From Carcharhinus longimanus (taxonomy: Eukaryota), in assembly GCA_030264375.1 (NCBI GenBank), contig JASCQW010000043.1, positions 74,615,397 to 74,679,396 on the forward strand: DNA of 64,000 bases, read 5' to 3'. Of this stretch, positions 208-60,715 are shown piece by piece. Below the pieces are notes generated by a model that had not been told where the DNA came from, made no database searches, and saw only the letters and a list, made by a program, of their open reading frames with translations. The position numbers and the translations under genes were made by a program. Numbering within the stretch: the stretch's first letter is position 1; the number at the start of each line of letters is the position of its first letter.

Positions 208-54446
<54,239 letters not shown>

Positions 54447-57867: not shown

Positions 57868-60430
57868 AGCTATGGATGCCCTCAATTTGCCTCATTGCTA
57901 ATGCATGCGAGTGTTCTATTCCGAAGCGATAATGTTGTTCGTAATCAATCTAGCCTTATTTACATTTGGAAGCATTGTTGTCTTTAATATGCATGCCTTG
58001 CTCATGTAAACGGCGCTCGACGCCCGGTTGGGTTAACTTCAACAAATCACTAAAGGTCTCCTCATAGTGGTCAGAATCTTTTTTTTCGGATTGAATCAAT
58101 TTTATTTTTCACTTGGGTTTTGCAGAGTACAACTAGCAAGCTAATCTAGCTCTTCTGCGTTTGACCACTTTTTTCTGTAATGGTACTTATTAACAGGATT
58201 TCTATACATTTAGTCAACCATCCATTCATACATTAACGGGATACCCATGTTTTACGTTACGTGGATTTTTAACTTTACTCTGTTATTTTTCATTTATCAT
58301 CATGGTTAGGTAGAGACATACATAAAATCCAATATCTTGAATATGTTTCTTTGAGCATCATTGATTGGTTGGTTTTAAATTTGCAATAAGAGTATACTTT
58401 TAAAAACTGTTATATGGATCTGTTTGTTACAAGTTGTCTACCCAATCGTATATTTAGGTCAATCAGTGCATATTATGAAAAATGGCAGATATATGCTGTT
58501 CCTTTTTTCACTCCATCCACCCATCCATATACTGTGCCAGGCTGTCCTCCCCTCTGCCCATGCTGCCTTCAGGCACAAAGTATTGCATTATTAGCTCCCG
58601 CTAAACAGGCAATGCCAGCAGGTATGCATTGTGGCACATTACATCTCCCATTATATTCTTCCAACTCCAACATATATAGGTTTTTAATCTTTAGAATTTA
58701 AAGATCACCCATTTCTAAGCAGCTCTGGCGACAACGGTACAAAAAGTGCAAGCTTTCTATAAATGACCATCACTGACTAACATGGATCATTCATCCCATT
58801 TTCAATTCCAATAAACACAAGTGAACTGGGACTTTGGACATCACTTCCAACTCGTACCAAGTGTTGCTTTGGAGCTATGTCTTTCGCTTACTGATTTTGA
58901 ATTAAGAATCTCTTCAATACTTCTAATTCGTTTAGTTTCATTTGAGTTTTTCATGTATTGATTGGCTTTACACCTGGAAAACTTTGAGTGATGGAACATT
59001 GCAGATCACATTGACTCATCTCACAGTGCAACATATATTCAATGTAGATTTTTGCCTGGACTAATTAATAAGGATACTTCATCAGAGTGCGAATATTACT
59101 TGCACTTCTTCCTTTGAACTATTTTCAGTTAACAGGGATTTTCAACTGAAGTAGATGTTGTCTTCCAGTGAGTTTTAATCTTGTAACTCGTTTCAATATG
59201 TCAAGCCCCCACTCTTCCCCTCCTCCCACTTCTCCCACACACGTTGGGCGAGGGGGGGGGGGCACTACTCACAAAATCTGTCAAAATAACGCAACTAATT
59301 ACCCTTGATGGAGCTGAAAGAGAAGTGGATTGCATGCTGTCCAGAGCATGGACACCGAATTAGGGGTACAACACACAGGCATATACACACTGACAAACAC
59401 ACACAAAAAGATCTGCTTTCAGTAAGTAATTTTAATCATTTCAGGGGCCATTCATTTGACAACCTAGCATCACGTCTTGTCGAACACGATTGGCGACACG
59501 ATCCTTTGACCTGCCGCTGTAGCAACAAATTTATTAGATATATAGGCATGAGAAATGAAAGGAAGTAAAACAATCGCGCCTCATTGTGCTCACCCTTTGA
59601 CTCTGCTAATCCGGTTTACACCTCACGCCTACATCACTCAATAGGACTATTACCAGCAAAAAATAAAAGGGGGGGGGGGTTGCTGATGTCTATGGGGGAA
59701 AACTATTTAAGTGAAAATGAGAAAGATTAAGACATTTCTTTACACGCAGCGATCTCCACCATCCCTTTTTTGTGATTGAAATTTTTTTTGCAAAGGGCTA
59801 CGCTTTAAATATAATTATCTGGCTGCACGTTTTATTGTTGCTTGTGATCAGAAATAAATGATTCGGTTTATCACCCATGCTTTGGATTACTTTTATAGGC
59901 AGACCAACTAGTTTGATTTTAAATATCATTAAAACATTCATGTGTTTGAAGTAAAGCAAAGAAAAAATACAACACCCACTGACAAATAATTTAAATGAAA
60001 TAGCAATCGAGGTGAAAAAAATGTAGATGTCTTTTTCCCCTGCTGAGGACAGCACTAATCATAGATTTATTTTTGTCCCAGAGGTGCATCTCAATAGGAA
60101 TTGCACTGAACGGAAGCTGGGGGCAACCCCTCGGAGCGTGAAAATAGGTTACAGGGATCCTAAGGACCCCCAACTTTGTCAGCGTTTCCATCAATGACTC
60201 CGTCTGTTCAGCATCTAAGTCTAACTGAGTATTCCGAATACAGTGAGAACACAAAATCACCTCAGATACATATCAATGCTCTGATACCACCCAACCATAA
60301 TAATCCCACTATTAGCTACAGCAACAGTGGCTGAATTAACAATATCAGTAACACAACATGCCCAAGCTATTTGCCAAGAGTATACCCCAAGAGCATTGCA
60401 GTCTTTTTTTTCAAAGGTAATTTCACTTAC

Positions 60431-60660
60431 CATCTTCCTCGAGGCTTCCTTGTGTGACCGTACTGGTCTAGCTTTGCTTTATATTTTCGGGGAGTATACG
60501 ATGTTATTTTTCACAAGGTTTAAAAAGTGATATTTTTTAAAGGAACAGGGAGTGTAATAATCCTGCTAGGTTGCAGTCATTCTGCTGTGTGCTGGAAGGT
60601 CTCACAATTACATGCCTGTTTCTATTAAGCAGCGCGATCCTCGAGGTGGGTGGTCTGCTC
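60431..60660 (-). other. PTCH1: Probable alternative first exon of PTCH1 (exon 1a-like); 5' end approximate
   Basis: Strong donor AAGATG|GTAAGT at 60431/60430. Sequence CTGCTTAATAGAAACAGGCATGTAATTGTGAG reads LLNRNRHVIV, resembling the recalled human exon-1a N-terminus MELLNRNRLVIVS. Adjacent GLI/E-box/GC-box cluster. Confidence 0.75.
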
Positions 60661-60715
60661 TCAATAGGCAGGACCTGTCACCGTCACGTGACGGCCCCAA
60701 CACCACCCCCGCCCC
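60647..60715 (-). promoter_or_regulatory. Distal promoter cluster: GACCACCCA (60647-60655), palindrome CCGTCACGTGACGG (60681-60694), GC box (60707-60715)
   Basis: Three exact motifs within 70 bp in a locally CpG-rich patch. Confidence 0.8.

What the first reader, a model, noticed from the sequence alone, without database searches (positions are those of the whole stretch)
60520..60660. Human L' N-terminus appears here as conserved but non-coding DNA
Seen: ATC GCG CTG CTT AAT AGA AAC AGG CAT GTA ATT GTG AGA (IALLNRNRHVIVR), starting 9 nt after the GLI site. Recalled human isoform L' begins MELLNRNRLVIVS. The start is ATC here, the frame closes with TAA near 60538, and an ATG-TAA start-stop sits inside. 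Inference: the block is conserved for a DNA or RNA function, and the mammalian coding N-terminus was exapted from a regulatory element, or was lost in sharks.
Basis: partly seen in the sequence, partly recalled or inferred. Interest (0 to 1): 0.75.

Follow-up and report, generated by a model that had tools for sequence, protein, structure and literature searches.

The report
Shark Patched1 upstream first exon
This is likely the shark copy of a known Hedgehog-responsive first exon of Patched1: its conserved block would be untranslated leader in sharks, and the protein start that mammals read from it is likely a later, unstable addition.

Summary
On the minus strand a GLI consensus (60655-60647) is followed by ATC and LLNRNRHVIVRP, an ATG-TAA, and a TAA at 60539-60537. 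A database mammalian L'-type N-terminus matches best at exactly this place (0 of 200 shuffles as good). Spliced to exon 2 it would give the short PTCH1 'M' isoform, which databases list for three sharks, salmonids, a caecilian, reptiles, birds and mammals. So the block is likely the 5' UTR and promoter of PTCH1 exon 1a. Shark-mammal likeness is as strong upstream of the mammalian Met, across a frameshift, as downstream, so coding is not needed to explain it. The L' frame was found only in placental mammals among named records; a chinchilla record lacks its Met, and 6 of 20 records cannot have its splice donor. Gain in mammals is favoured over loss in sharks, but intermediate lineages were not seen at DNA level. 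Known exon, modest new evolutionary point.

The parts
60681..60694 (.). 14-bp palindrome holding an E-box (CACGTG); likely promoter element
   Evidence: sequence; reads PSRD in the shark frame and in mammalian records P0229, P0230, P0233; core changed in run X19
60647..60655 (-). GLI consensus site GACCACCCA
   Evidence: exact match; RPPT in shark and in P0229 is compatible with the same bases; binding not tested
60537..60638 (-). ATC-started frame of 33 codons plus TAA; remnant or precursor of the mammalian L' frame
   Evidence: A at -3 and G at +4
60588..60632 (-). stretch matching the mammalian L'-type N-terminus (LLNRNRHVIVRPSST)
   Evidence: best six-frame match of P0154 and P0229, 0 of 200 shuffles each
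60608..60613 (-). ATG-TAA start-stop in the predicted leader
   Evidence: weak start context
60566..60580 (-). four-codon upstream ORF (MTAT-stop)
60431..60433 (-). ATG as last codon of the exon; predicted start of isoform M
   Evidence: only ATG|GTRAG on the minus strand between 53112 and 64000; A at -3, and G at +4 after splicing
60425..60430 (-). consensus splice donor GTAAGT; predicted 7.3-kb intron to exon 2
   Evidence: use of the donor not shown by reads
54279..54446 (-). coding part of exon 1b (main first exon, 56 codons)
   Evidence: equals N-terminus of P0047
52919..53111 (-). PTCH1 exon 2, phase-0 acceptor

Best explanation
The block is likely the promoter-proximal 5' untranslated part of the shark's PTCH1 exon 1a, a first exon that would be switched on by GLI and is predicted to splice from an ATG-ending donor to exon 2, making the short M isoform. 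Shown: the motifs, the donor, the phase, the shark-mammal homology, and M-type proteins in shark annotations. Inferred: GLI and an E-box factor bind here and drive Hedgehog negative feedback; the bases are conserved for that DNA or leader function; scanning ribosomes would meet a start-stop and a four-codon ORF before the M start, damping output. Inferred, weaker: in the mammalian line an ATG arose beside a 3-base indel, opening a frame of about 110 codons that is mostly an upstream ORF and becomes the L' N-terminus only where a weak internal GC donor exists.
For: Only ATG|GTRAG upstream of exon 2 in the window, phase 0. Proteins starting [12 protein letters not shown]: 25 of 201 stored proteins that hold the exon 2 motif, among them Scyliorhinus canicula, S. 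torazame and Heterodontus models of 1379 aa = 1434 - 56 + 1, salmonids, a caecilian, python, Pogona, birds and mammals. The 30 residues upstream of the L' Met in P0229 match 60694-60641 with score 55, the first 20 from the Met match 60632-60588 with score 48, in different shark frames, 0 of 200 shuffles each; chinchilla P0230 gives 50 upstream, 0 of 200. L'-type tail spliced to exon 2 in 3 of the 201 proteins (ground squirrel, two Pipistrellus). Every named hit to the tail is a placental mammal. Unspliced, the frame runs about 80-116 codons with variable ends; the residue after the L' junction is Ala in 14 of 20 records where the site was found (GC donor possible), Thr in 5 and Ser in 1 (no GT or GC possible; reindeer, leopard), Val in none. 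Chinchilla P0230 has Thr for the Met. A PTCH1 exon-1C variant is reported in human but not mouse (PMC2386930 passage). Run X19: 3 substitutions in 124 bases of the predicted leader against 26 in 238 upstream, Fisher p=0.004. The stop at 60539-60537 shows no change in X13, X15, X19; indels of -4 (three runs) and +1 (one run) lie just downstream. Two guessed-RNA contigs lie wholly inside the predicted exon (60471-60642, 60458-60652), a weak hint.
Against: No read or contig shows the splice from 60431 to exon 2; the two guessed-RNA contigs stop short of the donor, and X19 runs far upstream and may be DNA. The genomic source of the M in other species was not checked; another ATG-ending exon could supply it, and catsharks have a further first exon (MVLVW) that was not found in this window. 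The X19 contig lacks 60625-60657, GLI site included, which if real means the site is dispensable in that lineage. In X13 the block is not significantly better conserved than its flanks (p 0.05-0.75 depending on two unlisted differences). Mammalian homology is read through translations, not DNA. The protein searches cannot see a frame as diverged as the shark's, so absence outside placentals is weak. P0229 is unnamed, and P0230 could be a duplicated copy. Squirrel and bat L' models may be projections of human annotation.
Confidence: 0.7

Rival explanations
1. A conserved upstream peptide: sharks start it at the near-cognate ATC, mammals at ATG, and the LLNRNRxVIVxP peptide itself is under selection (for example a ribosome-stalling leader peptide that tunes PTCH1-M output).
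For: ATC sits in a strong start context (A at -3, G at +4); the frame is open for 33 codons; 10 of 12 residues match the mammalian frame; the first 38 residues differ at 0-4 places among most placental records.
Against: Equal likeness upstream of the start across a frameshift; likeness ends by about codon 17; frame lengths differ (33 against about 80-116); chinchilla record lacks the Met and changes the peptide; X19 contig lacks the ATC.
Confidence: 0.12
2. The coding L' N-terminus is ancestral to jawed vertebrates and was lost in cartilaginous fishes.
For: The sequence is homologous and one base from ATG; DNA from intermediate lineages was not seen, so loss is not excluded.
Against: No L'-type tail in any non-placental named record among 201 exon-2 proteins or among the 6 hits in 1.84 billion representatives (4 related, 2 unrelated repeats); it would need several further losses, and tail and donor are unstable even in placentals.
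Confidence: 0.08
3. The block is an upstream GLI enhancer acting on the exon 1b promoter, and is not a transcribed exon in this shark.
For: No splice was shown; several GLI-bound modules act on mouse Ptch1 (PMC4887206 passages).
Against: Consensus ATG-ending donor in phase; M-type models in three sharks; guessed-RNA contigs inside the predicted exon. Enhancer and promoter roles can coexist.
Confidence: 0.1

Closest known systems
Human/mouse PTCH1 exon 1a (Nagao naming; exon 1C in Shimokawa naming)
   Same: Most upstream first exon, kilobases above exon 2 and spliced to it (over 9 kb in mouse per PMC3449132 passage; 7.3 kb here); own ATG; Hedgehog-upregulated (PMC10363645 passage). A functional GLI site inside exon 1a and the names M and L' are recalled from Nagao 2005 and RefSeq; that paper was not held.
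   Different: No ATG and no long frame at the L' position; a start-stop and a four-codon ORF instead; leader shorter and without the G/E/D-rich stretch of mammals.
PTCH1 isoform L' (exon 1a')
   Same: Residues 3-14 match 10 of 12; same place relative to GLI site and E-box, give or take one codon.
   Different: ATC instead of ATG, stop after 33 codons, 208 bases to the donor (out of frame). The shark cannot make L' from this frame.
Repressive upstream ORFs of mouse Ptch1 (Fujii 2017, PMC5316868) and start-stop elements (bioRxiv 10.1101/2021.07.26.453809)
   Same: Upstream ATGs in a Ptch1 leader; an ATG directly followed by a stop.
   Different: The passages seen name the 1b isoform as predominant and do not treat exon 1a; the start-stop preprint's main text does not mention PTCH1. 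The shark start-stop corresponds to Leu-Val in the mammalian frame, so it is not shared at that position.

Membership tests
PTCH1 exon 1a/1C orthologue | Lies upstream of exon 1b of PTCH1, same strand | tested here: met
   about 6 kb above the exon 1b ATG
PTCH1 exon 1a/1C orthologue | Sequence homology to mammalian exon 1a | tested here: met
   through translations only: P0154, P0229, P0230; human DNA not available
PTCH1 exon 1a/1C orthologue | GLI consensus site at or in the exon | tested here: met
   60655-60647
PTCH1 exon 1a/1C orthologue | Ends in an ATG and a phase-0 donor that would give isoform M | tested here: met
   M-type shark models
PTCH1 exon 1a/1C orthologue | Transcribed and spliced to exon 2 | tested here: inconclusive
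   guessed-RNA contigs inside the exon, no junction seen
PTCH1 exon 1a/1C orthologue | Induced by Hedgehog through GLI binding | not testable with these tools
   needs ChIP or reporter assay
Isoform L' coding exon | ATG at the start of the LLNRNR frame | tested here: not met
   ATC
Isoform L' coding exon | Open frame to an in-frame donor | tested here: not met
   TAA after 33 codons; 208 bases to the donor
Conserved-peptide uORF | Conservation confined to the frame, with synonymous bias | tested here: inconclusive
   likeness extends upstream out of frame; synonymous bias needs DNA not held
Structured RNA element | Stable fold or known family | tested here: not met
   z -1.12, 28 of 200 shuffles as stable; no Rfam match at E<=1

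The most novel reading that the evidence does not exclude
The human PTCH1 L' N-terminus was born de novo in the mammalian line from a GLI/E-box promoter-leader element older than the shark-mammal split: an ATG gain made a long upstream ORF in the ancient M-isoform leader, replacing the short-ORF control seen in sharks, and a weak GC donor that comes and goes among placentals captures it as a protein tail. Sharks may already start the proto-frame at a near-cognate ATC.
Probability: 0.45. Interest if true: 0.5.

Novelty: new member of a known kind. Interest (0 to 1): 0.3.

Why it matters
It would date the exon-1a promoter and the M isoform of a core Hedgehog feedback gene and tumour suppressor to the jawed-vertebrate ancestor. 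It also suggests that the high conservation of the human L' codons reflects regulatory DNA, not protein: a variant there that looks like an L' missense may act on GLI-driven transcription or on an upstream ORF. It is a clean, testable case of a coding tail arising from old non-coding sequence, a known kind of event.

Tried and rejected
Vertebrate DNA of the element from outside sharks could not be had: the GLI+block pattern gave 10 matches in metagenome contigs, none with homologous flanks, and 0 in genome and viral contigs. No listed sequencing run is on record as RNA; this is no evidence on expression. The exon 1a-exon 2 junction could not be examined with reads, so splicing stays open. No second copy in the own genome. 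No paralogous block in 20 kb above PTCH2 exon 2: best local hits E 0.39 or worse, and the one beside-GLI-looking hit (E 4.7) has no GLI site. RNA hairpin idea rejected. Triple CTCAATAGG (59637, 60090, 60660): 25 of 500 shuffles and 3 of 37 real tiles do as well, and the mammalian translation reads Trp where the shark copy reads Leu, so it was dropped. The C-terminal 30 residues of the mammalian frame do not match the window (193 of 200 shuffles as good), nor do chinchilla's 20 residues from the Thr (169 of 200). Earlier scan findings: none. Literature: seven searches showed no paper on the origin of L' or on shark exon 1a; the library lacks most subscription journals, and the two primary papers asked for were not held. 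Supplement text of PMC5316868 and PMC4496206 held no exon 1a sequence; figures kept as pictures (5' RACE and conservation panels of PMC5316868) could not be read and may bear on novelty.

Full report
Observation. The window holds PTCH1 on the minus strand: exon 2 (53111-52919) is 100% identical to two shark PTCH1 proteins among 581 hits, 120 listed, and the exon 1b coding part (54446-54279) equals the catshark N-terminus. About 6 kb above exon 1b lie, in order, a 14-bp E-box palindrome (60694-60681), a GLI consensus (60655-60647), ATC at 60638 opening IALLNRNRHVIVRP, an ATG-TAA (60613-60608), a four-codon ORF (60580-60566) and the TAA closing the ATC frame after 33 codons (60539-60537).

Homology to the mammalian L' tail. 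No human record of it was retrieved. A ground-squirrel model with the L'-type tail spliced to exon 2 (P0154) turned up among cluster members. Its first 20 residues score 48 at 60632-60588, the best in all six frames, with 0 of 200 shuffles reaching that; the full 67 residues against the upstream minus strand were reached by 6 of 500 shuffles. The match is real but short.

At 60433-60425 the sequence reads ATG|GTAAGT, the only ATG-ending GTRAG donor on the minus strand between 53112 and 64000. Exon 2 starts in phase 0, so the splice would give a protein starting Met-Gly-Lys-Ala-Thr. Such proteins are 25 of 201 stored proteins holding the exon 2 motif (the 201 come from the top 120 hits and the listed cluster members, not a full census). 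They include Scyliorhinus canicula, S. torazame and Heterodontus models of 1379 residues, exactly the 1434-residue form less 56 plus 1, and salmonid, caecilian, snake, lizard, bird and mammal models. That this is isoform M from exon 1a, and that L' comes from an internal donor of the same exon, is recalled from Nagao 2005 and RefSeq; the paper was not held. Passages read support the frame: exon 1a equals 1C, carries its own ATG and is upregulated by Hedgehog signalling (PMC10363645); it lies over 9 kb above exon 2 and splices to exon 2 or 3 (PMC3449132); the mouse region has three GLI sites and exons 1a-1e (PMC4496206). I did not check where the Met of each database model lies in its genome.

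Why the block is conserved. Two records read the mammalian frame from further upstream: unnamed P0229 and chinchilla P0230. The 30 residues before the L' Met in P0229 match 60694-60641 with score 55, higher than the 48 of the first 20 residues after it, and in a different shark frame; 0 of 200 shuffles reach either; chinchilla scores 50 upstream, 0 of 200. So shark-mammal likeness covers about 105 bases from the E-box through the GLI site into the LLNRNR block, straddles a one-base indel, and is indifferent to the start codon. This is what DNA-level or leader-level constraint predicts (inference). The mammalian frame has one more codon between the GLI site and LLN, so the ATC-ATG correspondence is plausible but sits on an indel.

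Other sequencing runs. Four of 24 listed runs were laid, all contigs. DNA run X13 spans the stretch with 16 substitutions, none of the kind that would make ATG. Guessed-RNA runs X15 and X17 cover 60471-60642 and 60458-60652, inside the predicted exon; their ends are too close to the ATC to judge it, and they do not reach the donor. The closing stop shows no change in X13, X15 and X19; X17 has unlisted differences and cannot be judged. A 4-base deletion (three runs) and a 1-base insertion (one run) at 60531-60532 show the ATC-to-donor distance is not frame-constrained. X19 has 3 substitutions in 124 leader bases against 26 in 238 upstream (p=0.004), but lacks 60625-60657, GLI site and ATC included; this is one contig and is unexplained. 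In X13 the block's conservation over its flanks is not significant.

State of the frame in mammals. Searches with the tail found 1 long protein among 47 candidates, 10 short ones among 13, and 6 representatives of 1.84 billion, 2 of them unrelated repeats. Named records are all placental: ground squirrel, two bats, reindeer, slow loris, leopard, snow leopard, chinchilla. Unspliced, the frame runs about 80-116 codons with variable ends. At the L' junction the next residue is Ala in 14 of 20 records where the site was found, Thr in 5, Ser in 1, never Val; 3 unspliced records did not fit the pattern and were left out. By the code this means a GC donor at best, and none at that place in reindeer and leopard records (inference; single-base errors or other donors are possible). 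Chinchilla has Thr for the Met and a drifted peptide, though the record may be a duplicate. A passage in PMC2386930 says the PTCH1-1Ckid variant was detected in human but not mouse; that 1Ckid equals L' is my recall. These searches could not detect a frame as diverged as the shark's, so absence in birds, reptiles and fishes is weak evidence.

Mechanism. Best reading (0.7): an ancient GLI-responsive promoter and first exon whose only conserved product is isoform M; the block is leader and binding sites; short upstream ORFs would damp translation, as upstream ORFs do for the mouse Ptch1 leader tested in PMC5316868 (abstract and passages) and as start-stops do generally (bioRxiv 10.1101/2021.07.26.453809, passages). 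L' likely arose in mammals by ATG gain plus a weak donor. Binding, transcription, splicing and translation effects are all untested here. Rivals: a conserved peptide started at ATC in a strong context (0.12), an untranscribed enhancer (0.10), ancestral coding lost in sharks (0.08).

Novelty. The exon, its GLI control and isoforms are known, and shark M-type models are already in databases. I found no paper on the origin of the L' tail in seven searches (listings seen, passages read for eleven papers), but the library lacks most subscription journals, including the primary PTCH1 isoform papers. Verdict: real, orthologue of a known exon, with a modest and testable evolutionary point. Interest 0.3.

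Noticed in passing
run X19 laid on window 60625-60657: One contig of another organism lacks 33 bases that hold the GLI site and the ATC, and has a changed E-box, while the rest of the leader is 97.6% identical. Real lineage loss or artefact is open.
   Followed up: partly
L015 about 7000-7120 (PTCH2 promoter, G000:C81): The GLI site before PTCH2 exon 1 lies in about 100 bases that by eye resemble the promoter before PTCH1 exon 1b, a likely paralogous conserved element; PTCH1 and PTCH2 are listed as a pair with such an element in PMC3595034. Not quantified.
   Followed up: partly
proteins P0123, P0133 (Scyliorhinus): A further first exon giving MVLVW before exon 2 is annotated in two catsharks; no matching codons were found on the window's minus strand.
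   Followed up: partly
proteins P0203, P0204, P0211, P0212, P0230: The mammalian exon 1a frame is annotated as separate genes under unrelated names (dr1-associated corepressor homolog, polyribonucleotide nucleotidyltransferase-like); likely mis-annotations of PTCH1 exon 1a.
   Followed up: partly
proteins P0199, P0226, P0227 against P0198, P0203: Frameshifted ends (ELM-stop against GIDVK) imply an ATG-TGA start-stop late in placental exon 1a, a possible parallel to the shark ATG-TAA at another position (inference).
   Followed up: no
proteins P0096, P0242, P0244, P0112, P0183: Lizard and songbird models have a 21-residue N-terminus ending in Met before exon 2, suggesting separate in-frame extensions of the M start in those lineages.
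   Followed up: no
window 59637, 60090, 60660: CTCAATAGG three times in 1 kb, same strand; borderline against shuffles (25 of 500).
   Followed up: yes
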